A stretch of 64,000 nt of DNA from Candidatus Xenobia bacterium (GTDB taxonomy: Bacteria; Vulcanimicrobiota; Xenobia; Xenobiales; QWHO01). Under the pieces are notes generated by a model, which saw only the letters and a program-made list of their open reading frames with translations, did not search any database and was not told where the DNA came from. Within the stretch, counting starts at the first letter, position 1; every line of letters starts with the position of its first letter. The position numbers and the translations under genes are program-made. Positions 982 through 51,341 of the stretch are shown here, piece by piece. The stretch covers positions 1-64,000 of the forward strand of contig BTUM01000006.1 in NCBI GenBank assembly GCA_045863235.1, in the 5' to 3' direction.

Positions 982-1752
982 ATGAGCTATGCCAGCCTGG
1001 AGGTGCTCTTTTCTCCAGCTGATTTCGCCGCCCTGAAGGGGCGCGATCTCAGCTCGGCGGTGGCGGTGGTGTTCGACGTGTTGCGAGCTACCAGCTCGAT
1101 CGTGACGGCCCTGGCCCACGGGGCAGAAGCGGTCATCCCGGTGCAGGAGATCGAGCAGGCCAACTCCCTGGCCCGGGAAGAGCCTGCTTACCTGCTGGCC
1201 GGAGAGCGCCACGGGCTGCGGCTGCTGGCCCACCAGACCGGGCAGCGCGACTTCGACCTGGGCAACTCCCCTCGCGAGTTCCAGCCGGAGATCGTGGCCG
1301 GGCGCACCATCGTCATGACCACCACCAACGGCACTCGTGCCTTGCAGGCCTGCTCGCACGCCCGGGCGGTTCTGGTGGGCTCGTTCTTGAACCTGACCGC
1401 CACGGCCCGGGCCCTGTCGCAAGCCCCGGCCGAGCAGCTGCTGCTGGTCTGCGGAGGCACTTTCGAGGAACTGGCCTACGAGGACGTGCTGGGAGCGGGT
1501 GCCCTGGCAGAACTGCTCGGCGAGCAGGCCCCACTTTCCGACTCGGCCCTGATCGCCCGCCAGATCTGGCGTGGAGCCGAGTCCGATCTGCTGGCGGCCC
1601 TGGCCCTGTCGAGAAATGGCCGGCATCTCCTGGGCCAGCCAGCCCTGGCCCAGGACGTGGCCTATTGCGCCCAGATTGACCGCTTCCCCGTGGTGGGCCG
1701 GATGCGGGCCGGCCGAGCAGAGTCGAGCAGGCCGGGGGCCTCGCTGACCTGA
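982..1752 (+). CDS. comB: 2-phosphosulfolactate phosphatase (ComB family)
   Basis: Motifs VVFDVLRATSSI, LAGER, FDLGNSPRE, MTTTNGT, ED.LGAG. Confidence 0.9.
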   Translation: MSYASLEVLFSPADFAALKGRDLSSAVAVVFDVLRATSSIVTALAHGAEAVIPVQEIEQANSLAREEPAYLLAGERHGLRLLAHQTGQRDFDLGNSPREFQPEIVAGRTIVMTTTNGTRALQACSHARAVLVGSFLNLTATARALSQAPAEQLLLVCGGTFEELAYEDVLGAGALAELLGEQAPLSDSALIARQIWRGAESDLLAALALSRNGRHLLGQPALAQDVAYCAQIDRFPVVGRMRAGRAESSRPGASLT

Positions 1753-1829
1753 AGCGGACTCGGCAACCGTGTGAGGAAAATTCTTCCCTTGTCGCGGCGC
1801 GATCCGCAGCCTGCGAACAGTTTTTGGGG

Positions 1830-1858
1830 TTGACACCCTGCACGGCATGGTTTAGATT
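1830..1858 (+). promoter_or_regulatory. Sigma70-type promoter
   Basis: TTGACA (1830-1835), 17-nt spacer, TAGATT (1853-1858). Near-consensus in a very GC-rich background and points into a non-coding structured region. Confidence 0.75.
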
Positions 1859-1864
1859 GCCGAA

Positions 1865-2506
1865 GTCGACGGCGACGTCGACCGAATCGGAAAGCGAAAC
1901 ACCGACGCACCGCACGAGCGAAATCGTGAGGCGGGCTGCCAGAGACCGATACCTGGCAGGGGTTGCATCCAGACCCGAGTGGTGCCGCGGCGTCTCGGCC
2001 GCGAGAATATCGAGACAGGCCTGGACGAGGCAACGGGACCGCGAGGAGAAGCAGCACCGCAAGGTGCCCCCGGGGCAACGAACCAGGAGGGGCCGGTGAG
2101 GATGGGGCCGGCTGCCCGGCGCAAGTCGGGCTGAGACCCCGCAGCTTCGGTTGCGGGCGCTCCGAAGAGCGAAAGACTCGGCGGGCTGTCGGCCGTGACC
2201 GACAGGGGTATGCGTCCCGACCTCAGCGACGCCGCAGACAGGCTTCGACTGCGAAACCAAAGAGAAGCGCGCTCCGGGCTGCGAGAAGTTCGGCGGGCTG
2301 TCGGGTCCGATACCGACAGGGGTGCGTGCTCACCGCAGCGCGCCGCAGTGTCTCGACTGCGCTACCATCGAGGCGGGCCTGGAACCAGGTCGGGACCGCG
2401 AGGAGAAGCGTCGGCGCGAGCCGGCCACCGACTGAAGGTTGCACCAGGAGTGTCCGGTGAGGTTGGAGCCGGGCCACGAAAGCCACCCTTCGAGGTGGCT
2501 TTCGTG
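1865..2506 (+). ncRNA. Putative large structured non-coding RNA with three internal repeated modules (family unrecognised)
   Basis: Bounded by a promoter and a 13-bp terminator hairpin. Many GNRA/UUCG-capped hairpins on the + strand. Three copies of GCGGG-CTG..CAG-GGG with compensatory stem changes, repeated pseudoknots, and an identical 19-mer CGGGACCGCGAGGAGAAGC at 2034-2052 and 2391-2409. No credible ORF. Confidence 0.75.
2475..2506. terminator. Probable bidirectional intrinsic terminator
   Basis: Perfect 13-bp inverted repeat CACGAAAGCCACC-cttcga-GGTGGCTTTCGTG between the putative ncRNA and the convergent gene ending at 2511. Confidence 0.75.
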
Positions 2507-2510
2507 CATG

Positions 2511-3341
2511 TCAGGAGAGCCCGTACTCCTGGCGGGCGTGCTCGAGCAGCACCGTGCCCGAAGTGATCTTTTGCTCGGCTTCGGCCACCATGGGAAGCGC
2601 CCGGCCGAGAACGTAGGGGTCCAGGTTGTAGCCTCGGGCCAGGCGACAGGCCTCCTGGAGCTGGCGAAGGCCGCTGATCACCTGGTCCAGGCCCATCAGG
2701 TAGTGCTCGATCTCAAAGCGCGGCAGGTGGGTCAGGTCGGCCATCTCGTTGCCGACATCCAGCCCCAGCGCCTTCATCTGCTGGCTGAAGACCATGGTGT
2801 TGATCTCTTGCGACTTGACCTTTCGGCACAGCTCCTCGAAGCGTTGGCAGGCGGCGTGCCGTTTGGCCTGGCCGAGCCGGAACGGGGCTTGAGCCTCTTG
2901 CTGGCGCTGCTCCCACAGCCCCCGCTCCATGGCCAGGTGGCGCCCACACTGCTCGCAGTTGGAGACCCACAGGGGATTGACATGCGAGCACTGCGAGCAG
3001 GTCAGCTCGAAGCTCAGCTTCGGCCCGGCGGTCAGCTCCTCGACCCGTTTCTGCAGGGCTGAGAGGTAGCTTCTGACGGTGGTCAGCTCGCGCTCGAGGT
3101 TGGCTTGCAGCGAGCCGAGATAGGCCCGCAGCTCTTCTTCGGAAAGCCCGTGGGCGGCTACCAGCTCGGCCATCCTCTCGTGGTTGGTCAGAGCCTCGCG
3201 CACGGCCGCCAGATACTCCTGGCAGCTGGCCCCGGCCTGGCGACCGCGTACCGTCTGCATGGCTCTCTCGGCCGCTTGCGAAGCGTCTTGTCCGCCCGTG
3301 GCCCCTCCCAAAAGACCCTGCATCAGCGCCTTCCAGCTCAT
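2511..3341 (-). CDS. Hypothetical protein with coiled coil and zinc ribbon
   Basis: Start MSWKAL at 3341 overlaps the upstream stop (TGATG coupling); CSQC-x10-CEQC motif. The first ~230 codons of the 2511..4034 ORF are a shadow of the DUF1152 gene. Confidence 0.7.
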   Translation of the reverse strand: MSWKALMQGLLGGATGGQDASQAAERAMQTVRGRQAGASCQEYLAAVREALTNHERMAELVAAHGLSEEELRAYLGSLQANLERELTTVRSYLSALQKRVEELTAGPKLSFELTCSQCSHVNPLWVSNCEQCGRHLAMERGLWEQRQQEAQAPFRLGQAKRHAACQRFEELCRKVKSQEINTMVFSQQMKALGLDVGNEMADLTHLPRFEIEHYLMGLDQVISGLRQLQEACRLARGYNLDPYVLGRALPMVAEAEQKITSGTVLLEHARQEYGLS

Positions 3342-4294
3342 CAGTAGGGGATCGCCTCCCAGGCCCGGAGGGGGGGATACTGCTTGCGAAATTCGTGCAC
3401 CACCCGCTCCACGTCGCTGTAGCTGCGCGTCTGGATCAGCTCTTTGAGGTAGAGGCAGCGGCGCGCCACGGCGTCCACCTCGTAGGACCAGTACATGCTC
3501 ATCAGGGGGCTGATGAAGAGGCGCGAGCCTTTCGTGCGCCAGGTGCGGTGGTGGTCGCCGAAGTGCCCCTCCAGGGCTGAGGCGACGGAGTTGGAGACCA
3601 CGCTGGGTGAGCCGGCGATGGCTGCGGTGGCGTAGTCCACCGCATCCAGGAAGAGGCGCGACTCGGCCATCTCCGGCAAGAGCGAGAAGGCACCCAGAAA
3701 GCCGCCCCTTTTCTGTAGGGCAGCAGAGTTCTCCAGAAACTGGGCGTGGCACACGCCGTCGAAAGTGTCCACCCCGAAGCCGAGGCAGCTCAAGACCTTG
3801 CAGGGCAGCTTCAGGCTGTGCACCGCGGCGATGCTGGCCAGGTCCTCTTGAGGGGTTCCCAGACCCACTTCGTCGCCTCTCATCAGGCTGTCGGTACCGC
3901 CGTCGGCGAGCACCACGGCGTCGATCTCGAGCCGGTCCACCAGCTTTGTCCAGGCGTCGAGCAGCGTCACCACGCCGGTGCGCTGGAAGCAGTAGATGCT
4001 CACCTCTTCGCCTCGCTTGCGAAACCACTGGCACAGCACGCGCTCGGGGAAATACTCGTCCGAGCCCTGCGTGTCTGCATCCACCTCGGTCACCGCCAGA
4101 GCCAGGCGTTTGCCCACCTCCGGGGTCAGGGAGGCGAAGGACATGTTGCCCAGGAACACGGCCTCAACGCGTGGCTTGAGGTAGAAGTAGAGGGGCAGGC
4201 CGACGTAGAGGTCAAAGCCCCCGCCGGCGCCTGAGATCAGCACCCGGCGCGCGCCGGCGAGTCGCTGCAAGACGGGGGGAACGCCCAGGTCCAC
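3341..4294 (-). CDS. DUF1152 domain-containing protein
   Basis: GAGGGFD, YFPE, DGGTDSLMRGDE.GLGTP.ED, LGFGVD, LFISPLMS.YW motifs; GTG start at 4294 inferred. Confidence 0.85.
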   Translation of the reverse strand: MDLGVPPVLQRLAGARRVLISGAGGGFDLYVGLPLYFYLKPRVEAVFLGNMSFASLTPEVGKRLALAVTEVDADTQGSDEYFPERVLCQWFRKRGEEVSIYCFQRTGVVTLLDAWTKLVDRLEIDAVVLADGGTDSLMRGDEVGLGTPQEDLASIAAVHSLKLPCKVLSCLGFGVDTFDGVCHAQFLENSAALQKRGGFLGAFSLLPEMAESRLFLDAVDYATAAIAGSPSVVSNSVASALEGHFGDHHRTWRTKGSRLFISPLMSMYWSYEVDAVARRCLYLKELIQTRSYSDVERVVHEFRKQYPPLRAWEAIPY

Positions 4295-4501
4295 TTGAGA
4301 GGGATTCGACCCGGGCCGCACTCCAGCCTCTTTTCAGCTTGCGTGCGTGGTCTGGCGCGCAAGATGACCGAACGCCCTGGCCTGATCGGCCGAGAGGGCG
4401 TCAGGCCCTGCGGGCGAAAACTGGCCAGCCGAAAGATCCCCGAAAGGTCGCTGAGGCATACTCAGGCCAACCAAATCCGCTCCTGGAGGAGGGCCCCTCG
4501 C

Positions 4502-7500
4502 ATGGCGATGAATCCGATCCAGCCTGGCTCCGGACCCCTGACCCCGACCCGGCCCCTGGAGAGCGATCCCGCACCAGCCTCGCCCGGGGGCTCGGGCCAC
4601 CTGGCCACCCAGATGGCTGTGAACGATCAGGCCAGGAGCCTGCTCTTCAACTGGGTGGCCGAGCTGGCCGGGCCGATGCCGAGCGAGCCCGAGTTTCTCG
4701 CCCTGCTGGAAGCGGCCGGCCTCCAACCTCAAGCGAGCTCTTTCTCCGCAGCCCTGGCTCTGATCACCCGCAAGCGAGGCTACGGCCTCCCGCCGTTCGA
4801 TGAGCTGCCCGCCGAGCTGAGGAGCCGCCTGCCGCGCGGGGAATACGAGCGCCTGCGCCAGGCTCTGCCGAAGCTGGGCCTGGCCTCGAATGCTCAGTCT
4901 CTCCTGCTGACCGGGTTTCTCTTGTGGATGGGCTACGCTCCTGACGCGATCCTGTCTCTCCTGAGCGTGGCTCAGAGCCACTCGATGCTTCCCCCGCGTC
5001 CCGAGGCTCCTGGCGGCTCGACTCCGGCAGCTGACGGGGGCGCCGCCCCGGCCTCCGCGTTGCCGCCTCCGGCAGCTGACGGGGGCGCCCCGGCTTCCCC
5101 GGCTCCCCCCGCGGCCGCGCCGCCTCCCGTCCCTCCCAGCTCCCCGGGAAATCTGGCCTCCCAGCACCAGGCCCTGCTCGAGCAAAAGCGCGCGGCCGAG
5201 GCCAGCGTGAGCGCTGCCGAGCAAGAGCTGGCGACCCTCAGGACAGAGCTGGCCAACCGCATGACCGCCATGCAGAGCGAGCTCGGGGACGACCCCAACG
5301 CGCGCAGGGCTTCCGAGGAGGCCCAGCGCACCTACCTCGAGGCCCGCGAGCAGAGCACCCAGAGCAAGGCCGCTCAGGCCGAAAAGCAGGCCCAGAAGAC
5401 CGAGCTTGCCGGGGAGATTCCCGTCCAGGAGCAGGCTCGTCAGCAGGCCACCGATGCCCGCGATCAAGCTCAGCAGACTATCGAGTCAGCCTCGGACGAG
5501 ATCGCGGGTCTGGAGGGCGAGCTGGCCTCGGTGCAGGAGGACCCTGAGAATCCGGGCGCGGCTGCCTCCGAGCGCGACCGGCTGCGCTCTCTCCTGAACG
5601 GGGCTCGCCAGCGCAAGCGTGATGCCGAGCGCCGTAAGGCCGAGGCCGAAGCCCGACTCGCGGCCGCCAACGAGCGCCTGACCGCGCTCCACGATCAGAT
5701 CGCCCGCCTGGAGACCGAGCTGGCCGAGCTGGCGACCTCTATCCAGGAGGCTGACGAGCGCGCTCGCCTGGCCCTGGAGCAGATGGACGCCGCTCGCGGT
5801 GTGCCTCCCGGCACGACCGCGGCCCAGATCGCCGACCTCGAGACCCGGCTCGCCGCGGCCGAGGAGCGCCTGCTCCAGGCTCGGGCCGAGTTGGGCCGGA
5901 TCGATGCCGAGATCGCCGGGATCGAAGCCAGGCTGGCGGCCGAGGAGAGTGCCCGCCAGGCTCGGGAGGCAGCCGCTCGGGACACGGCTCCGGAGGTCGG
6001 GGACGGGGGAGCGGCCTCGAGTCTGGACAGCGTGCTGGGCGGAGTCGATGAGCAGGATCGGGCCGACGGGCTCAACTGCCTGGAGGCCTCCCTGGTGTAC
6101 GCCGAGGAGAACGAGCAGGACGTGCTGCTGCTGGAGGACCCCGATCTGGATCCTGACCAGGCCGAGGGAGAGACGCTCACCCACCACGCGGTCGTGGTCA
6201 ACAGCCAGGGCATGGTCACGTTCGACGGCTCGCGGCCGCTGATCCCACCGGTCCCTGTGGAGACCTACGTCAACACGAGCGGATACCAGCGCTTCAGCAG
6301 CCAGCAGGGGGTGGAGGTCGGCCCGGTGCCGCCCTCGTTCCTCACCGATGCCGAGCTGAGGGCCCGGGCCCTGGCTCCTGGCGGGGCTCTGGACGGGGTG
6401 CCCGCCGGGGCCGTGTTCCGCGACCCGCCTGTCCAGGTTCCCGAGCGCTTCCCCACCGAGCAGGCCCTGCCCGACGACAACGTCCCGCCAGTGGAGCCGC
6501 CGGTCTATCGCGTGGACCTGAGCGACCCCAACCTGCCACCCTACCTGGCCGACCAGATCCAGGCCGCCAATTCGATGGCCGGGGCCCTCGGGCTGGGATC
6601 GGGCGTGAGCCTGGACCCCAGCGGCCAGTACGCCTATGTGAACGCCGAAGGGATCCTGGTGCAGGTGACCCCGCAGGGCGTGGTGCCTTACGGCAGCGGA
6701 CCCTCGGTCTTGCAGATCTTCGATGGCGTGAGGATGGACAACCCCGTGGCCGTGCAGCAGGCCCTCGACAGGGCGGCGGAGTTGACGGGCCAGGGCGCCC
6801 GAGTCCTGCCTGGCGTCGACCAGCCGCTGACCGCCGAGCAGGTTGCCGAGCTGCAGTCCCTGGGCTACACCGTGGCCGTGGTGGACACGGCCGCCTGGAG
6901 CGCGTCCGCCTGCCGGCCCCTGGATGACCCGGGCCTGGTGACCAGCACCGGACAGCGGGGTGGCTCTGCCAGTGTCTACCTCTTGATCGGAGGACCCGAG
7001 CTGGACGAGCCGGCTGCCATCGAGACGGGCACCGCCGCGGTGCTCTTCAGCCAGGAGGCCTCTCAGAGCCAGGTCCAGCAGTTCGTTGATTTTGTCAATC
7101 ACCGGCAGTATCAGGACCCAGTTCTGAACGTGCGCATGCAGCGGGTGCTGACCGATATCGAGCAGTATGGCTCGCTGGAGGAGGCCTGGGCCGCCGTCAT
7201 GGAGATCGAGGCCCGGGCCGCCGGCACCGTGCGGGTGGGCCCGGAGGTCGACTGCCCGGTCCCCTCCCAGACCGTCACGCCGCAGTGGACCCCCCCCGCC
7301 TCCTTCGACGAGCGCACCAATGACCTGGACTTCGAAGGCCTGCGCATCGACGCCGGCGGAGGACGCGTCGAGCTGGGAGAGGGCTTCGAGGCTGTCGGGG
7401 GCAGCGGCGGGCTGGTCTACGATGAGAACGGACAGCCCGGCTACGCCTATGAGAACGTCAACACCGGCCAGGTCGTCTACGTGTTTGGCGCCCGCCAGGT

Positions 7501-10500
7501 GGTTCGCACTCAGGGCGGAACCGAGATCGCCGACACCTACTGGGTCGCTCCGGCCGGCCTGAGCGAAAGTGGCCCGACGGGAGGACTGCTGCGCAGCACC
7601 CAGACCGATCAGGCGTCCGGAACCGTTCTGCGCACGATCACCCTGACCTCGCTGAGCGAGCCCGCCGCGGCCTTCACCGACCTGTGGTACGCTCCCGACG
7701 GCCAGGTGGTGGCCGCGATGGTGCGGCCCATCGGGTCGGGCAATCCTCTCGAGGTGGGCAATGACCTGCCCCGCGACTTCTCGATGGCACCCGACTCGGT
7801 GCGCGCCACCTTCGAGAACTACCAGAACGTCGTCCGGATGGGCGATGCCAACTGGGTCACCGGGGATGACCTGGTTCTCACCGAGGAGGGCGCGGTTCAT
7901 TACCGTTTGCCCGACACCCAGGAATGGATCTGCGCCGCCACGGGCCGCGACCCGGTGGTGGCCGCCGTTTCCCTGGCTGAGGCCGAGCTGGGACCGATCG
8001 ACCTGAGTCAGCCCACCTCGGCCCAGATCGAGCGGATCACCGGCCACATGCTGGGGGAGAACTGGCTCGATCTGGGACTTACGGCCGAGCAGCTCACCCG
8101 CCGCGACGAGCTGCTGGCCCTGCAAGAGTCCGGCAGTCTGCTCGAAGGCCAGCTCGACGAGCTGAACTCGCTTCTCATGATCTCGGGGGGCGAGCGCGAC
8201 CGGCGCTACGGACTTCTGATCGACGGCCTGCTGCGCAACTACCTCGAGAACGAGGTCGACCCCGCCGCGTTGGCCGAGCTCAACGAGCTGCAGGCCCTGC
8301 CGAGCCGGACGACCGACCAGCAAGCCCGCCTGGATGAGCTGCAGGCCCTCATGGCACCGGTTGACGAGTACCGCTCCATCGTGCTCGAGGGGCTCATCGG
8401 CCACACCCGCAGCAGCTTTGCGCCGGTTTATCACGACCTGATGTACGACTGGGCGGGCGATCCGGCTGCCCAGATGACGGTCTTGCTCAGCCGTTGCTCG
8501 ATGGTGGAGCGGGCCTTCATGATTCCACCCGACGCCCTGAACCTTTCCGACATGGCACTCCAGCAGCAGTATGCCCTGGACCTTTCCAACGGGGTCGAGC
8601 TGAATGCCTTGCAGATGCAGTATCTGAGCTTTCCCACCAACTCCGATGGATTGCTCGGGGAGTTCCGCCGCGAGCAGCTGTATCGCCAGGGGATGCTGGC
8701 CGAGCTGGAGGGGAATCCCCAGCTGGCGGATCAGGTTGCAGCCGAGCTGGGGGTGAGCCCGGAGCAGGTGCGCGCGCTCTTGTCGGCCCCCGATCCTTCC
8801 GCTCTGGGCCTGGAGGATTTCCTGCTCTACGTCAGCCTCACCGACCCGATTTTGCCCGAGAATCCCGCCGCCTTCACCCCCACCCAGCGGCTGGCGGTAC
8901 GGGCGGCGACCGCGGTCAGCTATTACGAGTCTCAGGGCTTTCTGCACTTTGACATCGCTCTGGCGGACGCCCGCAATCGTTACCAGTCAGCCCGGGGACA
9001 GTACTTGCTCGACCGCAATCAGGTGAACCGGGCGGCCAGTGAGCGCGATCGCGGCGTTCCCGTGGCGGAGTGGATCTACAATCGGGGCGCCGACGTGTTC
9101 AACTGGACCGGCGAGGAGGACATCACCACCACCGGCGGGGGGGAGCTGAGCAGCTTCTTCGGGGCTTACTACAGCGAGATTCTCTCGCTCGAGCAGAGCG
9201 TCGCCCGGCTGGAGGAGTTCCGAAGCCAGCTCGTTCCTGGTATGAGCTGGACGGACCGCAAGAACCTGATGCTGCGCGCCGGGGCCACCCAGGACGCAGC
9301 CGGCTTCGCCCTCTTTCGTAGCTCCCTGGCCGCGGCCAATCCAACTCTGGAGCGCATCGGCGCGGCTCGCGGGGCGGCCGTGCAGGAGGCGCACGAGAAC
9401 CTGGGCGAGTATGTGCGGGGCGTGGAGATCGCCTCTTACACCCTGGAGGGCATCTTTGCCACGGTCGGGATGGGGCTGGCGGTCTGGACCGGCGGAGGCT
9501 CGGCAGCGCTGGCGCTGGGCCTGCTCGGCGGCGGGGTGGGCGGGGGCGCCTATCACGTGATGGAGAATCTTGCTTCCGGCAATCCCAACTTGCTCGAGAA
9601 CGTTCCCGGAGGCTTGCTGCGCGGCTCGGTGAACGGATTCTTCGCTATCGGCGGCTCCTTGCTGGCCAACTCGATCCGTCTGGGTGGGGGAGGTCTGGTC
9701 AGCCAGATGTCGGCCCGTTTCGGGTTTGGAACCTTTGCGCCCAACTTCGGGATGACCGCGGTGGAGACAGGCGACTTCCAGATGGCCCTGATCGCGGGGA
9801 TCTTCTCCACGGCCGTGGATATTGGTGGGGAAGGGGCCACCTCTCTCTTCCGCTCGCTGTTCCGAGGGGTCGACGTCCGGCCTCCTACCCCCGACGAGGC
9901 GATAAGTCGCCTGCGTCAGTACTACGGACTCAGCGAGGCCGACATGCGGTTCGTGCTCGGCGATCGCAATCTCGACCTCGAGTCTCGCCTGGCCGGGCTC
10001 ACCGGGGGAGGGGGCGGATACTCTGATCCGATCAACTTCAACTCCCCTCGTCACCGGCTGGGCGACTTCGAGCTGGCCGACGGGAGCACGGTGCAGCTGC
10101 CGGCGCGCGACATCCGGGTGCTCCAGTCCCGAGGTTGGACCGACATCGAGGTCGTGCCTGGCTCGGCCCAGAATGCGCCCATCTACCGAACCGGCGATGG
10201 GCAGGGGGGATTCATCTACTTTACGATGGTGGACAACCAGCCACGCCGCATGCCTTCGTTCGAGCAGGTCACCAGCCAGACGTTCCCGGCCAACCGGCTG
10301 ACCGACCCGGCCCGGGCCGCCGAAGCCAACCGCTTTCTGCAGATGCACCTGACCCACGGGCAGATGATCGCGGCCGGCAATTACGAGGGGGCGATGATCT
10401 ACTTCCGACAGGTGATCGAGCCGGCCCTCGATGGTGCCAACGTCAGCGTCACCCGGACCAATAACTTCTTCAATCGACAGGCAGCACGCAGCTTCTACGA

Positions 10501-11089
10501 TTCGGGAGAGCGCGTGGTCTCCTACGACGGACGGCTGATCCCGTCCCAGGACCACTACCCTTCCGAGGCCTTCGTGATGCACGAGGAGTTCGGCCATTTC
10601 ATCCAGGCGGAGTACGCCGGCGGTCCGCTGAGTTTCGACGTTCCCTATCAATCGGACGTGTTCGCGGCTCCCACCCTGGCCGAGCTCTCCAACCCTGATT
10701 TCGTGGTCCGGATTCCCGCTGCCGGCGCGCCCAACGGAGAGCTGGTGGTGCCTGCCCAGAACTTCCTTTATGAGGCTCACCTGCGGGCCGATGCTCTGCA
10801 GATCCCTGCCAGCCAGCGCACCACCGTGCAGATGGGCGGGGTGTCCTACTCCGTCCCCAACGACTGGTTCAACGCGTCCCAGAACCTGGCCAACCTCGCC
10901 ACCTCCTCCGATCGGGGAGCTCTGTTCACGGCCAACAGTCATACCTTGCAGGTCTACAACCAGGCCATCCGGTCGGCTGCTTTCGAAGTCGACGTGGAGG
11001 GCATGATGTGGCGCTCGGGAGTTGATCCACTGGGGATGAATTCCGAGTGGCGCGCCTACCACATCGAGCGAAGCTACAACCCCTGGTAG
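4502..11089 (+). CDS. Giant (~2195 aa) multidomain protein, toxin/effector-like
   Basis: Continuous ORF; GGAGGAGG RBS before ATG 4502. Pro/Ala linker, long coiled coil, NCLE..HHAVV..FDG segment, Gly-rich hydrophobic helices and a C-terminal HEEFGHFIQ motif. Confidence 0.8.
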   Translation: MAMNPIQPGSGPLTPTRPLESDPAPASPGGSGHLATQMAVNDQARSLLFNWVAELAGPMPSEPEFLALLEAAGLQPQASSFSAALALITRKRGYGLPPFDELPAELRSRLPRGEYERLRQALPKLGLASNAQSLLLTGFLLWMGYAPDAILSLLSVAQSHSMLPPRPEAPGGSTPAADGGAAPASALPPPAADGGAPASPAPPAAAPPPVPPSSPGNLASQHQALLEQKRAAEASVSAAEQELATLRTELANRMTAMQSELGDDPNARRASEEAQRTYLEAREQSTQSKAAQAEKQAQKTELAGEIPVQEQARQQATDARDQAQQTIESASDEIAGLEGELASVQEDPENPGAAASERDRLRSLLNGARQRKRDAERRKAEAEARLAAANERLTALHDQIARLETELAELATSIQEADERARLALEQMDAARGVPPGTTAAQIADLETRLAAAEERLLQARAELGRIDAEIAGIEARLAAEESARQAREAAARDTAPEVGDGGAASSLDSVLGGVDEQDRADGLNCLEASLVYAEENEQDVLLLEDPDLDPDQAEGETLTHHAVVVNSQGMVTFDGSRPLIPPVPVETYVNTSGYQRFSSQQGVEVGPVPPSFLTDAELRARALAPGGALDGVPAGAVFRDPPVQVPERFPTEQALPDDNVPPVEPPVYRVDLSDPNLPPYLADQIQAANSMAGALGLGSGVSLDPSGQYAYVNAEGILVQVTPQGVVPYGSGPSVLQIFDGVRMDNPVAVQQALDRAAELTGQGARVLPGVDQPLTAEQVAELQSLGYTVAVVDTAAWSASACRPLDDPGLVTSTGQRGGSASVYLLIGGPELDEPAAIETGTAAVLFSQEASQSQVQQFVDFVNHRQYQDPVLNVRMQRVLTDIEQYGSLEEAWAAVMEIEARAAGTVRVGPEVDCPVPSQTVTPQWTPPASFDERTNDLDFEGLRIDAGGGRVELGEGFEAVGGSGGLVYDENGQPGYAYENVNTGQVVYVFGARQVVRTQGGTEIADTYWVAPAGLSESGPTGGLLRSTQTDQASGTVLRTITLTSLSEPAAAFTDLWYAPDGQVVAAMVRPIGSGNPLEVGNDLPRDFSMAPDSVRATFENYQNVVRMGDANWVTGDDLVLTEEGAVHYRLPDTQEWICAATGRDPVVAAVSLAEAELGPIDLSQPTSAQIERITGHMLGENWLDLGLTAEQLTRRDELLALQESGSLLEGQLDELNSLLMISGGERDRRYGLLIDGLLRNYLENEVDPAALAELNELQALPSRTTDQQARLDELQALMAPVDEYRSIVLEGLIGHTRSSFAPVYHDLMYDWAGDPAAQMTVLLSRCSMVERAFMIPPDALNLSDMALQQQYALDLSNGVELNALQMQYLSFPTNSDGLLGEFRREQLYRQGMLAELEGNPQLADQVAAELGVSPEQVRALLSAPDPSALGLEDFLLYVSLTDPILPENPAAFTPTQRLAVRAATAVSYYESQGFLHFDIALADARNRYQSARGQYLLDRNQVNRAASERDRGVPVAEWIYNRGADVFNWTGEEDITTTGGGELSSFFGAYYSEILSLEQSVARLEEFRSQLVPGMSWTDRKNLMLRAGATQDAAGFALFRSSLAAANPTLERIGAARGAAVQEAHENLGEYVRGVEIASYTLEGIFATVGMGLAVWTGGGSAALALGLLGGGVGGGAYHVMENLASGNPNLLENVPGGLLRGSVNGFFAIGGSLLANSIRLGGGGLVSQMSARFGFGTFAPNFGMTAVETGDFQMALIAGIFSTAVDIGGEGATSLFRSLFRGVDVRPPTPDEAISRLRQYYGLSEADMRFVLGDRNLDLESRLAGLTGGGGGYSDPINFNSPRHRLGDFELADGSTVQLPARDIRVLQSRGWTDIEVVPGSAQNAPIYRTGDGQGGFIYFTMVDNQPRRMPSFEQVTSQTFPANRLTDPARAAEANRFLQMHLTHGQMIAAGNYEGAMIYFRQVIEPALDGANVSVTRTNNFFNRQAARSFYDSGERVVSYDGRLIPSQDHYPSEAFVMHEEFGHFIQAEYAGGPLSFDVPYQSDVFAAPTLAELSNPDFVVRIPAAGAPNGELVVPAQNFLYEAHLRADALQIPASQRTTVQMGGVSYSVPNDWFNASQNLANLATSSDRGALFTANSHTLQVYNQAIRSAAFEVDVEGMMWRSGVDPLGMNSEWRAYHIERSYNPW

Positions 11090-50326: not shown

Positions 50327-51238
50327 TCAGGATACCGGGGTCTTTACGTCGGCCCCCCAGGCCTTCTCGTAGAGTTGCTCGAGCTCCGGGCTGGCGGTGC
50401 GAGCCTCGGTTGAGAGTTGACGCAGGAAGGGCGCCAGTTTGACCTGCTCGACCGAGAGCTCGCCGGCCTTGATGCGCCGGAAGAATCGATTGAAGTCAGG
50501 CACGGCCACCTGATGAGGCTTGCGGCTGGCGGGCTGGGCCCGCAGGCCGGCCCGGCTCAGGGCGGCCATCAGCTCCACCACGTGGCGGTAGCCGTCGGCC
50601 AGGGCCTGGCGCTCCTTGCCGTGGAAGCCGGGAGTCTTGAGCTGCTCGCGGTCGGTCTCGAGCTGTTCGAGCCGGTCCCACATCCCCAGTCCGTCTCCCT
50701 GCACCAGCATGCCCGAACGGATGGCAACGTACAGGCTCTGGAAGGCCCGGTCGCGGAGTCGCTCGAGGGAGGCCAGCTCGGCCTGCGAGATGGCCGTGCC
50801 GGCCAGCCGGGCCAATGCCTTGAGGGAGTGGTTGACGGCCCCCACGACCTGCTCGTAGAGGGACTTCTCCTTTTCGACCTCCAGCACGCGCTCGACGGCG
50901 GTGAGGAACTGGGCGATCCCGAAGGGCTTGAAGAGGTAGTCCTCGGCTTCCACCCGGATGGCCCGCCCGGGAGCGTCGTCGGAGGCGTAGCCAGTGATGA
51001 CGATGCTGCGCAGGTCGGGCTGGATGAAGCGCATCTGCTGCAGGCACTGGATGCCGTCCATCTCATCCATGCGAACGTCCGTGACCACCAGGTCGAAGAT
51101 GTTCTCGCGCGCCAGGGCCAGCGCCTCGGACGGGCTCGAGGCACCGTAGACCAGATACTGGTCGTAGTCTTCCAGCGTGGTGACCAGGATGTCCCGCAAG
51201 GTGGGATCATCCTCCACGATCAGGATGGCCCAGGACAA
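50327..51238 (-). CDS. Response regulator (REC plus uncharacterised C-terminal domain)
   Basis: ILIVEDD, DLVVTDVRM..MDG, ITGY, DYLFKPF. Confidence 0.9.
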   Translation of the reverse strand: MSWAILIVEDDPTLRDILVTTLEDYDQYLVYGASSPSEALALARENIFDLVVTDVRMDEMDGIQCLQQMRFIQPDLRSIVITGYASDDAPGRAIRVEAEDYLFKPFGIAQFLTAVERVLEVEKEKSLYEQVVGAVNHSLKALARLAGTAISQAELASLERLRDRAFQSLYVAIRSGMLVQGDGLGMWDRLEQLETDREQLKTPGFHGKERQALADGYRHVVELMAALSRAGLRAQPASRKPHQVAVPDFNRFFRRIKAGELSVEQVKLAPFLRQLSTEARTASPELEQLYEKAWGADVKTPVS

Positions 51239-51341
51239 AGGTCTACCCTCCGCGGATGAGTTGCTAGACCGCGTCCACGAGGGGGTTTGCGGCCGGGTCC
51301 CAGGTGGGTTCGGCGCGCGGGGTGGGGTTTTCCTGGGAGGC

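What the first reader, a model, noticed from the sequence alone, without database searches (positions are those of the whole stretch)
1865..2506. Stand-alone ~640-nt structured RNA built from three diverged copies of one module
Seen: a near-consensus promoter (TTGACA-N17-TAGATT, 1830-1858) and a perfect 13-bp terminator (2475-2506) enclose a region with no credible ORF, organised ABC-AB-ABC. Domain A is a three-way junction at 1904-1969, 2155-2217 and 2266-2330. Its closing stems are GACGCA/TGCATC (one mismatch), GGGCGC/GCGTCC and AGCGCGC/GCGTGCT, around an invariant GCGGG-[stem]-GGG core whose stem covaries (CTGCCAG/CTGGCAG versus CTGTCGG/CCGACAG). Domain B is a pseudoknot. Domain C (2020-2112, 2378-2474) is closed by CCTGG/CCAGG and holds an identical 19-mer CGGGACCGCGAGGAGAAGC plus a covarying GNRA hairpin (GCACC-GCAA-GGTGC versus GTCGGC-GCGA-GCCGGC). 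Extra GNRA/UUCG hairpins lie at 1865-1882, 2114-2131 and 2138-2157. Tetraloops and G-U pairs favour the + strand. The next gene is convergent, so this is not a 5' leader riboswitch. Inference: an independent large ncRNA in the size class of OLE/ROOL/GOLLD, or a polycistronic precursor of 2-3 paralogous RNAs. I do not recognise the family.
Basis: partly seen in the sequence, partly recalled or inferred. Interest (0 to 1): 0.9.

Follow-up and report, generated by a model that had tools for sequence, protein, structure and literature searches.

The report
Modular double-pseudoknot RNA gene family
This is a real, transcribed non-coding RNA of about 640 bases built from repeated pseudoknot modules, one of about eight such genes in an uncultured Eremiobacterota-type bacterium; it matches no described RNA family and its function is unknown.

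Summary
Window 1865-2506 (+) is a promoter-to-terminator unit with no coding signal, organised ABC-AB-ABC. It is not unique. The same genome has nine places (about eight genes) of the family, with 1 to 5 or more modules each and about 26 modules in all. The family occurs in 5 of 5 genomes of the genus, in a second family of the order, and in one genome of a third family of the class. It was not found in 112 other genomes sampled from the phylum.

Covariation supports most helices. Domain B is a second H-type pseudoknot. Domain C carries GGAG-rich loops.

Rfam 15 has no match. Metatranscriptome contigs and raw RNA reads from two studies cover only the predicted transcript, not the flanking genes. 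Against the same-genus orthologue, the RNA and its promoter are about 97% identical and the flanking ORFs 88-89%.

Function is not shown. My best guess (about 0.4) is a multivalent decoy or scaffold for an unidentified RNA-binding partner, CsrB/RsmZ-like in logic only. CsrA, Ro60 and ProQ were not found in the genome.

The parts
1814..1819 (+). Conserved upstream box CGAACA, followed by an A/T-rich stretch and GGGG just before the -35 hexamer
   Evidence: Present at the same distance in 5 of the 8 own-genome loci examined. The promoter block 1830-1864 is 97.1% identical to the orthologue, against 62.6% for the spacer 1753-1829. A role as a regulator site or UP element is inferred.
1830..1858 (+). 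Sigma-70-type promoter TTGACA-17-TAGATT
   Evidence: 1 site against 0.1 expected. 7 of 8 own-genome loci have TTGACA, a 17-18 nt spacer and a -10-like hexamer. RNA reads begin in the bin 1849-1909.
1865..1882 (+). 5'-terminal hairpin GUCGACG-GCGA-CGUCGAC at the predicted +1
   Evidence: The same hairpin starts 6-7 nt after the -10 hexamer in 5 of 8 own loci and in orthologues. A role in protecting the 5' end is inferred.
1887..1928 (+). Two h0 hairpins (1887-1905 and 1913-1928) with the apical motif GCGAAA
   Evidence: Sequence read. The h0 helix is 72.6-81.9% paired, with 5-6 of its 6 pairs changed on both sides.
1936..1985 (+). Module 1, domain A. A 7-bp hairpin (1936-1959) is followed by a compact H-type pseudoknot: GGGU (1960-1963) pairs with the GACC loop (1972-1975) of hairpin h2 (1965-1985).
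   Evidence: The A stem is 97-98.5% paired and h2 is 94-95% paired. The tertiary pair G(after CAG)-C(last of GACC) reads G-C in 67 units and A-U in 5 (plus 1 more behind an alignment gap), with no exception among 74 units.
1986..2016 (+). Module 1, domain B: H-type pseudoknot. S1 is 1986-1990 with 1999-2003. The loop GUCUCG (1992-1997) pairs with CGAGAC (2011-2016).
   Evidence: S1 is 91.5-92.4% paired. S2 is 70-78% paired, with all 7 of its pairs changed on both sides.
2020..2112 (+). Module 1, domain C. It has the closing stem CCUGG/CCAGG (2020-2024 with 2083-2087), a conserved internal loop (19-mer, 2034-2052), a GNRA hairpin (2054-2067), and a hairpin at 2091-2112 with the loop UGAGGAUGGGG.
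   Evidence: Alignment A4 of 35 C domains is 93.0% paired against 84.7% shuffled. Helices P2 and P4 covary. The closing stem never varies.
2114..2157 (+). Two linker hairpins: 2114-2131 (GCAA loop) and 2137-2157 (UUCG loop)
   Evidence: Read from the sequence and present in the minimum-free-energy fold. Not tested for covariation.
2158..2268 (+). Module 2 (AB only). It comprises h0 (2158-2181), the A hairpin (2186-2205), h2 (2212-2232) and B stem S1 (2233-2253). The B loop GCUUC (2242-2246) pairs with GAAGC (2264-2268).
   Evidence: Covariance-model hit at 2152-2283, 89.1 bits. Coordinates.
2269..2374 (+). Module 3, domains A and B: h0 (2269-2293), the A hairpin (2298-2319), h2 (2324-2343), B stem S1 (2344-2361) and the 3' strand of S2 (2368-2374).
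   Evidence: Covariance-model hit at 2264-2393, 108.1 bits. Changes against the orthologue include 2327 and 2337, which lie on opposite strands of h2.
2378..2474 (+). Module 3, domain C: closing stem (2378-2382 with 2444-2448), 19-mer (2391-2409), GNRA hairpin (2410-2425), and terminal hairpin 2452-2474 with the loop UGAGGUUGGAG.
   Evidence: A double GGAG/GAGG loop just before the terminator also occurs in the two other families.
2475..2506 (+). Terminator hairpin (13-bp perfect stem), 4 nt from the stop codon of the convergent ORF
   Evidence: Homologous hairpins in the paralogues are followed by U-runs. Against the orthologue, 2478 G>A and 2503 C>U are compensatory. RNA read depth ends in the bin 2459-2519.

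Best explanation
Shown: window 1865-2506 (+) is an independently transcribed, highly structured non-coding RNA. It is one member of a multi-gene family found in large-genome lineages of one class of Vulcanimicrobiota/Eremiobacterota.

Each gene has a near-consensus sigma-70 promoter, a 5'-terminal hairpin, 1 to 5 or more serial modules, and an intrinsic-terminator hairpin. A module has three parts:
- A: small h0 hairpin(s), then a 7-bp hairpin stacked on a compact H-type pseudoknot.
- B: a second H-type pseudoknot.
- C (optional): a roughly 95-nt domain with a conserved purine-rich internal loop (ACCGCGAGG...) and GGAG-rich hairpin loops.

Inferred mechanism: the RNA acts in trans as a multivalent decoy or scaffold. 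Each module offers the same folded surface to one copy of an unidentified RNA-binding partner. Gene number, module number and promoter activity would then set how much partner is held. This is the logic of CsrB/RsmZ/CrcZ, with an unrelated fold and a partner that is not CsrA. The 5' hairpin and the terminator would protect the ends and make the RNA long-lived and abundant.

My confidence that it is a real, expressed, novel structured RNA family is about 0.9. My confidence in the decoy/scaffold mechanism is about 0.4; the field below gives that figure.
For: Gene-like unit:
- Promoter.
- 7 of 8 own loci share TTGACA-17/18-TAnnnT, and 5 of 8 share the CGAACA box and the 5' hairpin.
- Terminator hairpins with U-runs in the paralogues.
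- The same layout occurs in two other families.

Structure:
- 76 AB units are 86.2% paired against 77.1% shuffled; 25 of 31 pairs change on both sides; slid controls give 30-41%.
- Across three families, 74 units are 88.2% paired against 74.4% shuffled, and 30 of 34 pairs change on both sides.
- The tertiary pair reads G-C in 67 units and A-U in 5, with no exceptions.
- The C domain is 93.0% paired against 84.7% shuffled.

Not coding.

Constraint: against the orthologue, the RNA is 96.6% and the promoter 97.1% identical, the flanking ORFs 89.3% and 87.8%, and the upstream spacer 62.6%.

Expression:
- In run X5, contigs cover only 1930-2472; one 480-nt contig has no differences.
- In runs X19 and X20, all 35 and 7 raw RNA reads lie within 1849-2519. 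Most first mates lie on the - strand.
- Loose ends of these reads match a paralogue.
- By the index, 12 RNA libraries from 10 studies hold at least half of the sampled words. Only 4 runs were laid on the sequence.

Trans-acting and multivalent:
- Nine dispersed places share no common neighbouring gene.
- There are 26-27 modules in the genome.
- Module number runs from 1 (contigs C35, C12) to 5 (C59) and to a tandem array that broke the assembly (C13/C111).
- GGAG-rich loops are conserved across families.
Against: - No partner is identified. CsrA, Ro60/TROVE and ProQ were not found in this 97.6%-complete genome.
- Hfq is present but does not track the RNA: it also occurs in 5 of 19 genomes of the family that lacks the RNA.
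- No binding, stoichiometry or phenotype data exist.
- The modules are far larger and more intricately folded than known protein-sponge sites. That would suit a ligand-binding, catalytic or architectural RNA equally well.
- Strand bias of the reads is clear at the 5' half but mixed at 2154-2336, at very low depth.
- One RNA-labelled run (X3) covers the flanks as evenly as the RNA, so it says nothing.
- Kin are not independent, so the shuffle controls overstate significance.
Confidence: 0.4

Rival explanations
1. Architectural RNA. The transcript folds into, or self-assembles into, a large RNA-only particle, as reported for GOLLD, ROOL and OLE. The repeated modules would serve as building blocks.
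For: The RNA is large (about 270 to more than 1250 nt), with dense covarying structure and stacked pseudoknots that should form rigid rods. It is abundant enough to assemble from metatranscriptomes. The abstract of PMC12286853, seen in the search listing, reports homo-oligomers for GOLLD, ROOL and OLE.
Against: Module number varies from 1 to 5 or more between paralogues, which does not suit one defined assembly. No Rfam match to those families. No intermolecular contacts were identified or tested here.
Confidence: 0.15
2. Polycistronic precursor. The multi-module transcript is cut into unit-length (about 110-230 nt) RNAs, which are the active species.
For: Single-module genes with their own promoter and terminator exist at contig C35 about 68290-68600 and C12 about 51080-51340, so one module can be a complete RNA.
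Against: A 480-nt metatranscriptome contig spans modules 1 to 3 without a difference. No positions with piled-up read starts or ends were reported, though depth was very low. No ribozyme or known processing motif was found in Rfam.
Confidence: 0.15
3. Array of ligand-binding aptamers. Each pair of pseudoknots binds a metabolite, ion or second messenger, and the RNA buffers or reports it in trans.
For: The junction nucleotides never or hardly vary (GGGG-U-A, ACC, CGG) and sit in a compact pseudoknotted core. That is typical of aptamer pockets, by established knowledge of riboswitch aptamers such as preQ1-II and SAM-II (recalled).
Against: There is no expression platform and no associated gene set. 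No similarity to any riboswitch model was found. Up to about 26 copies per genome would be unprecedented for an aptamer.
Confidence: 0.1
4. Base-pairing or ribosome-directed RNA. The conserved single-stranded purine motifs (CCAGGAG, GUGAGGAUGGAG, ACCGCGAGG) pair with mRNAs or sRNAs, or mimic Shine-Dalgarno sites and engage the 16S rRNA 3' end.
For: GGAG/GAGG motifs in loops are conserved across three families. Hfq is encoded. Most paralogues have U-rich terminator tails.
Against: A genome-wide scan for the motifs was uninformative: 13 of 24 loop-motif hits and 327 of 338 ACCGYGAGG hits lie outside the family, and the ones inspected looked like ordinary sequence without the hairpin. Most of the conserved sequence is in helices and junctions, not in seed-like single strands. 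The 16S 3' end was not examined.
Confidence: 0.1
5. Not a functional RNA: a repeat, a mobile-element remnant or an unannotated protein-coding region.
For: It is multi-copy and internally repetitive. One locus lies beside a phage-type integrase. Long ORFs overlap the region, as is usual in GC-rich DNA.
Against: Synteny is conserved, and conservation is higher than in the flanking genes. Base changes are compensatory. Each copy has its own promoter and terminator. No terminal repeats or transposase are shared among loci. There is no codon-position bias and no Pfam match. RNA-library coverage is restricted to the unit.
Confidence: 0.03

Closest known systems
CsrB/CsrC, RsmX/Y/Z and CrcZ protein-sponge RNAs (features recalled from established knowledge; no paper read here)
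   Same: An independent gene with a strong promoter and a conserved upstream box. Several paralogues per genome. Serial repeats of one binding unit. GGA-type motifs in hairpin loops. An intrinsic terminator. Variable repeat number.
   Different: No match to their Rfam models. CsrA was not found in the genome. The repeat unit here is a domain of about 110-230 nt with two H-type pseudoknots, not a hairpin of about 15 nt. The partner is unknown.
OLE, GOLLD, ROOL and raiA: large ornate bacterial RNAs (PMC12286853, abstract seen in the listing)
   Same: Large, lineage-restricted, rich in covarying structure, function unknown when discovered.
   Different: No Rfam match. This RNA is built from serial copies of one module, with 1 to 5 or more per gene. 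It is dispersed as about eight genes per genome. No conserved protein partner gene lies beside it.
tmRNA pseudoknot string (PK2-PK4) and the upstream pseudoknot domains of plant-virus 3' UTRs (recalled)
   Same: Consecutive compact H-type pseudoknots arranged in series.
   Different: No tRNA-like domain and no tag reading frame: ARAGORN finds nothing in 1700-2600. No Rfam tmRNA match.

Membership tests
Any Rfam 15 family (4227 models) | Score at or above the family's gathering threshold | tested here: not met
   No matches over the whole window at gathering score. At E up to 10 on 1700-2600 there were only three sub-threshold hits: RNAI at 19.2 bits against a threshold of 47, which lies on the terminator hairpin on the opposite strand; a 16-nt GNRA hairpin; and a snoRNA model.
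CsrB/RsmZ-type CsrA sponge | The cognate CsrA/RsmA protein is encoded in the genome | tested here: not met
   A six-frame search with PF02599 found no match in the 97.6%-complete genome. The controls responded in E. coli, B. subtilis and T. maritima.
CsrB/RsmZ-type CsrA sponge | Many GGA motifs presented in the loops of short hairpins | tested here: inconclusive
   GGA/GGAG motifs occur in the loops and junctions of domain C, about 3-4 per C domain. They are far sparser than in CsrB, and domains A and B lack them.
OLE / GOLLD / ROOL / raiA | Match to the family's covariance model | tested here: not met
tmRNA | tRNA-like domain plus a tag-peptide reading frame | tested here: not met
   ARAGORN found no genes in 1700-2600. 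No Rfam hit.
Riboswitch / cis-regulatory leader | Lies upstream of, and on the same strand as, a regulated gene, with an expression platform | tested here: not met
   The next ORF is convergent. The unit ends in its own terminator. Nine loci share no neighbouring gene.
Bacterial Y RNA (Ro60-associated) | Ro60/TROVE protein encoded in the genome | tested here: not met
   PF05731 had no match.
Hfq-dependent sRNA | Hfq is present, and the RNA has a U-rich terminator tail and single-stranded seed or ARN motifs | tested here: inconclusive
   Hfq is present. In the order, every family and genus that holds the RNA also has Hfq, but so do 5 of 19 genomes of the family that lacks the RNA. The window copy has no U-tail, though the paralogues do. 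Binding cannot be tested with these tools.

The most novel reading that the evidence does not exclude
The family is the RNA half of an undescribed global regulatory or ribonucleoprotein system specific to large-genome Xenobia-type Eremiobacterota. In this reading a double-pseudoknot module is a new, self-contained recognition fold for a protein family not yet linked to RNA, or for a small molecule. It would be multiplied up to about 26 times per genome and expressed at levels that make it one of the organism's most abundant transcripts in the environment.
Probability: 0.3. Interest if true: 0.9.

Novelty: new variant of a known kind. Interest (0 to 1): 0.8.

Why it matters
New large structured bacterial RNAs are rare, and each earlier one (OLE, GOLLD, ROOL, raiA, HEARO) opened a line of work. 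This one comes with unusually complete in-silico support:
- a defined promoter and terminator;
- about 150 module copies across the genomes searched, available for covariation analysis;
- two pseudoknots per module, including a tertiary base pair proven by covariation;
- environmental RNA evidence.

It lies in a phylum that has only a single cultivated representative, according to the title and abstract of PMC9758169 seen in the listing. No regulatory RNA turned up for this phylum in my searches. The modules are small enough (about 110 nt for AB) for crystallography, cryo-EM scaffolding, probing and pull-downs.

Tried and rejected
- Rfam at gathering score and at E up to 10: nothing.
- ARAGORN: nothing.
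- Earlier notes of this scan, looked up by sequence and by relatives: nothing. The genome-wide notes gave only the taxon lead.
- CsrA-sponge idea: CsrA not found. Ro60 and ProQ not found.
- Hfq profile across the order: present in every family and genus that holds the RNA, but also in 5 of 19 genomes of the family without it, so it does not discriminate.
- Shared-neighbour test. 65 flanking ORFs at 9 places were scanned against Pfam. ORFs were chosen as the longest non-overlapping ones, which in GC-rich DNA includes spurious ones; for example, the real ComB frame was replaced by an antisense ORF. No recurrent family was found.
- Genome-wide scan for the C-loop motif and for ACCGYGAGG: 11 of 24 and 11 of 338 hits lie in the family. 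The rest looked like ordinary sequence. I drew no conclusion about targets.
- Small ORFs behind the SD-like motifs: the two copies in the window give unrelated peptides in different frames (read), so I rejected them as coding.
- Run X3: it covers the flanks evenly, so it says nothing about transcription.
- Pattern scan of genome contigs. Of the 12 loci found, 9 were given to the covariance model. Five matched. Four did not (records titled Chloroflexia, Planosporangium, Devosia, Umezawaea) and are taken as chance hits, about the number I expected. Three loci were not tested.
- Literature searches: no paper on this RNA. I read listings and abstracts only.
- Position 33 against position 100, a long-range correlated pair in the mutual-information scan: it follows the split between families and has exceptions, so I did not accept it as a pair.
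Full report
**1. The observation**

The stretch was read.
- The promoter-like site TTGACA-17-TAGATT (1830-1858) is the only one in 1500-3000, against 0.1 expected from shuffles.
- A perfect 13-bp inverted repeat lies at 2475-2487/2494-2506. The tool's terminator scan reports none, because this copy lacks a U-run.
- Direct repeats confirm a modular plan. Copies lie 357-361 nt apart (the C domains and the ends of B) and 112-114 nt apart (the A domains of modules 2 and 3).
- The + strand folds better against shuffles (z = -3.95) than the - strand (z = -2.51), with 20 shuffles each.
- ORFs overlap the region on both strands, as expected in GC-rich DNA, but none has a Pfam match.
- The upstream gene (982-1752, +) is a ComB-type 2-phosphosulfolactate phosphatase. 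The downstream ORF (2511-4034) is convergent.

**2. Not in Rfam**

cmscan of the whole window at gathering thresholds gave no matches. On 1700-2600 at E up to 10 there were three sub-threshold chance hits, the best being the terminator hairpin against RNAI on the opposite strand at 19.2 bits (threshold 47). ARAGORN found no tRNA or tmRNA.

**3. It is a gene family**

BLAST of the 651-nt stretch against the window's own genome (8.36 Mb, 166 contigs, 97.6% complete) found related loci on contigs C43, C23, C79, C59, C111 and C13. The covariance model added C35 and C12.

Read side by side, the loci share one plan.
- Promoter: a perfect TTGACA, a 17-18 nt spacer and a -10-like hexamer in 7 of the 8 loci whose 5' end is on the contig.
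- Upstream box: CGAACA plus an A/T-rich stretch and GGGG in 5 of 8.
- 5' hairpin: GUCGACGGCGACGUCGAC, starting 6-7 nt after the -10 hexamer, in 5 of 8.
- Body: 1 module (C35, C12), 2-3 modules (C6, C79, C23, C43) or 5 modules (C59, about 1250 nt).
- 3' end: a terminator hairpin homologous to 2475-2506, followed by a U-run in the paralogues.

Contigs C13 and C111 both end inside near-identical 106-nt tandem AB units, so one very long member has broken the assembly.

The last modules of different loci resemble each other (79-84% identity) more than they resemble other modules of their own locus. I take this to mean that whole genes were duplicated and that module position is maintained.

**4. 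Structure**

I aligned 76 distinct AB units from the five genomes of the genus and one genome of a second family (alignment A1). I had first dropped 13 regex hits that plainly lacked the motif (one search lists them).

RNAalifold recovered two hairpins. My fuller model has h0, the A stem, hairpin h2, B stem S1 and the pseudoknot stem S2.
- It pairs in 86.2% of cells, against 77.1% after shuffling (0 of 500 shuffles reach it) and 30-41% when partners are slid.
- 25 of 31 pairs show changes on both sides.

Its 3' strand is really the 5' strand of hairpin h2.

I then used a CM-guided alignment of 74 units from three families (A3). It is fitted to the nested helices but not to the pseudoknots.
- It gives 88.2% paired against 74.4% shuffled, and 30 of 34 pairs change on both sides.
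- A new tertiary pair emerged. The first G after the A stem pairs with the last C of the GACC in the h2 loop: G-C in 67 units, A-U in 5 (plus one hidden by an alignment gap), no exception.
- Two neighbours support it: G-C, which never varies, and U-R (U-G 52, U-A 12).

This makes a compact H-type pseudoknot (S1 GGGU/RACC, one-nucleotide loops around a 6-bp S2) that can stack on the A stem. Stacking and geometry are inferred.

Domain B is a second H-type pseudoknot. S1 is 91.5-92.4% paired. S2 is 70-78% paired, and every one of its 7 pairs changes on both sides.

Domain C (35 units, alignment A4) pairs in 93.0% of cells against 84.7% shuffled. Helices P2 and P4 covary, and the closing CCUGG/CCAGG stem never varies. 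Its variable apical hairpin was left out of the count because it does not align column by column.

These sequences are related to each other, so the shuffle controls overstate significance. The slid controls and the number of pair types are the more robust measures.

**5. Not coding, and under constraint**

Against the same-genus orthologue the locus is syntenic over 3.6 kb.

| Region | Identity to orthologue |
|---|---|
| RNA | 96.6% |
| Promoter block | 97.1% |
| Flanking ORFs | 89.3% and 87.8% |
| Upstream spacer | 62.6% |

The 23 substitutions show no third-position bias in any overlapping frame. They include compensatory pairs in the terminator (2478/2503) and in h2 of module 3 (2327/2337).

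**6. Expression**

The run index lists 18 runs that hold at least half of the sampled words of 1800-2560. Twelve are RNA libraries, from 10 studies of wastewater, sludge, bioreactor, wetland, sediment, soil and aquatic samples. Only four runs were laid on 1300-3100.
- X5 (metatranscriptome contigs) covers 1930-2472 and nothing else, apart from two 20-nt scraps. One 480-nt contig (1934-2413) has no differences.
- X19 and X20 (raw RNA reads, about 12% of each run read) give 35 and 7 reads. All lie in the bins 1849-2519 and none in the flanking genes.
- First mates lie mostly on the - strand (for example 18.4 against 0.33 in 1910-1970; all in X20). In the usual stranded protocol that means a + strand RNA; the protocol is assumed. 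In 2154-2336 of X19 the two directions are about equal, at depth 1-2.
- Many X19 reads on 1930-1963 run on into sequence that matches the first module of the C59 paralogue, so that gene is expressed too.
- X3 covers the flanks as evenly as the RNA and is uninformative.
- No piled-up read starts or ends were reported; depth is too low to map the ends.

**7. Distribution and organism**

The covariance model R1 (134 positions, 24 pairs) was run over genomes at three levels.

| Group searched | Genomes with a match |
|---|---|
| Order, 40 genomes, E up to 0.001 | 20 |
| — own family | 5 of 5, with 17-27 matches each |
| — second family | 15 of 16 |
| — third family (genomes of 1.9-4.7 Mb) | 0 of 19 |
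| Class, 44 genomes, E up to 1e-6 | 14 |
| — one genome of a further family | 3 hits |
| — another family | 0 of 3 |
| Phylum sample, 151 genomes | 19, all in these three families |

In the phylum sample, 112 further genomes had no match. I say 'not found in those searched', not 'absent'.

Outside the phylum I ran only one exact-pattern scan of 185,579 species genomes, which found 12 loci.
- Nine were given to the model.
- Five matched: records titled Vulcanimicrobiota bacterium (3), Candidatus Eremiobacteraeota bacterium (1) and 'uncultured Burkholderiales bacterium' (1).
- Four did not match: Chloroflexia, Planosporangium, Devosia and Umezawaea. This is about the number expected by chance.
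- Three were not tested: two titled 'uncultured Burkholderiales bacterium', and a second locus on a Vulcanimicrobiota contig already tested.

Earlier notes of this scan call the genome Eremiobacterota / Candidatus Xenobia. NCBI lists Candidatus Xenobia as a class of Vulcanimicrobiota. I did not place the genome phylogenetically myself.

Loci from the other two families keep the plan. Each has a TTGACA promoter with an upstream palindrome, a 5' hairpin, 3-4 modules, a terminal hairpin whose loop holds two GGAG motifs, and a terminator with a U-run.

**8. Context**

Across nine own-genome places the neighbouring genes differ (ComB, ThiL-like AIRS, CHAT, clostripain-type peptidase and DinB, amine oxidase, integrase, TGT, and others). 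No family recurs. This fits trans-acting RNA genes, not leaders or 3' UTRs.

**9. What it does**

Nothing here shows function. These features argue for a multivalent decoy or scaffold, the logic of CsrB/RsmZ/CrcZ (recalled knowledge):
- an abundant and probably stable RNA with protected ends;
- co-regulated strong promoters;
- serial copies of one intricate fold;
- copy number varying by gene and by module;
- conserved GGAG-rich loops.

The partner is not CsrA, Ro60 or ProQ, none of which was found. Hfq is present but does not discriminate.

The rivals remain open and could coexist: an architectural, self-assembling RNA; a precursor of unit RNAs; an aptamer array; a base-pairing or ribosome-directed RNA.

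**10. Novelty**

No Rfam family matches. Five literature searches returned nothing on such an RNA (I read listings and abstracts only). Supplements were not consulted.

I file it as a new family within the known broad kind 'large structured bacterial non-coding RNA'. Two features have no close precedent that I know of: a double-pseudoknot module repeated in series, and about eight genes per genome.

Noticed in passing
own genome: end of contig C13 (about 123289-123816) and start of contig C111 (1-700); loci L048, L049: Both contigs break inside near-identical 106-nt tandem AB units of this RNA family. One very long member, with its promoter on C111 and its terminator on C13, is probably split by an assembly gap. 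A phage-type integrase gene lies about 2 kb from the C13 end.
   Followed up: partly
window 1949 to 2367 (read-laying table 5, run X19): Seven RNA reads join 1949 to 2367, skipping 417 nt, with only 20 nt on the shorter side. This could be a shorter relative or isoform, or cross-mapping of a paralogue.
   Followed up: no
L047 about 730-750, and L067 (reverse strand) just upstream of the -35 hexamer: Family members in two other families have short palindromes directly upstream of TTGACA (AGTGTT-N5-AACACT type and GTTAAC-N5-GTTAAC type). The own genus has a CGAACA box instead. These may be regulator sites that differ by lineage.
   Followed up: partly
window 2511-4034 (-) and 4295-11089 (+): ORFs of 507 aa and 2264 aa next to the RNA have no Pfam match at E up to 0.01.
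   Followed up: no
own genome C113:6851-7039 (-), locus L088: The single Hfq domain lies in an open frame of 234 aa, so this Hfq may carry a long extension.
   Followed up: no
Genome-contig loci L079, L080, L084: Three records that carry this Eremiobacterota-restricted RNA are titled 'uncultured Burkholderiales bacterium'. The label is probably wrong.
   Followed up: no
window about 1705 (run X3 contig): A contig in an RNA-labelled run carries a 21-nt insertion behind 1705, near the 3' end of the ComB-like gene. This is in-frame strain variation.
   Followed up: no
own genome C35 about 68290-68600 (-) and C12 about 51080-51340 (+): Single-module members of the family, about 270 nt each, with their own terminators. 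In the C35 copy the A stem reads CUCGAGG/CCUCGAG instead of CUGCCAG/CUGGCAG, a fully compensated change.
   Followed up: partly
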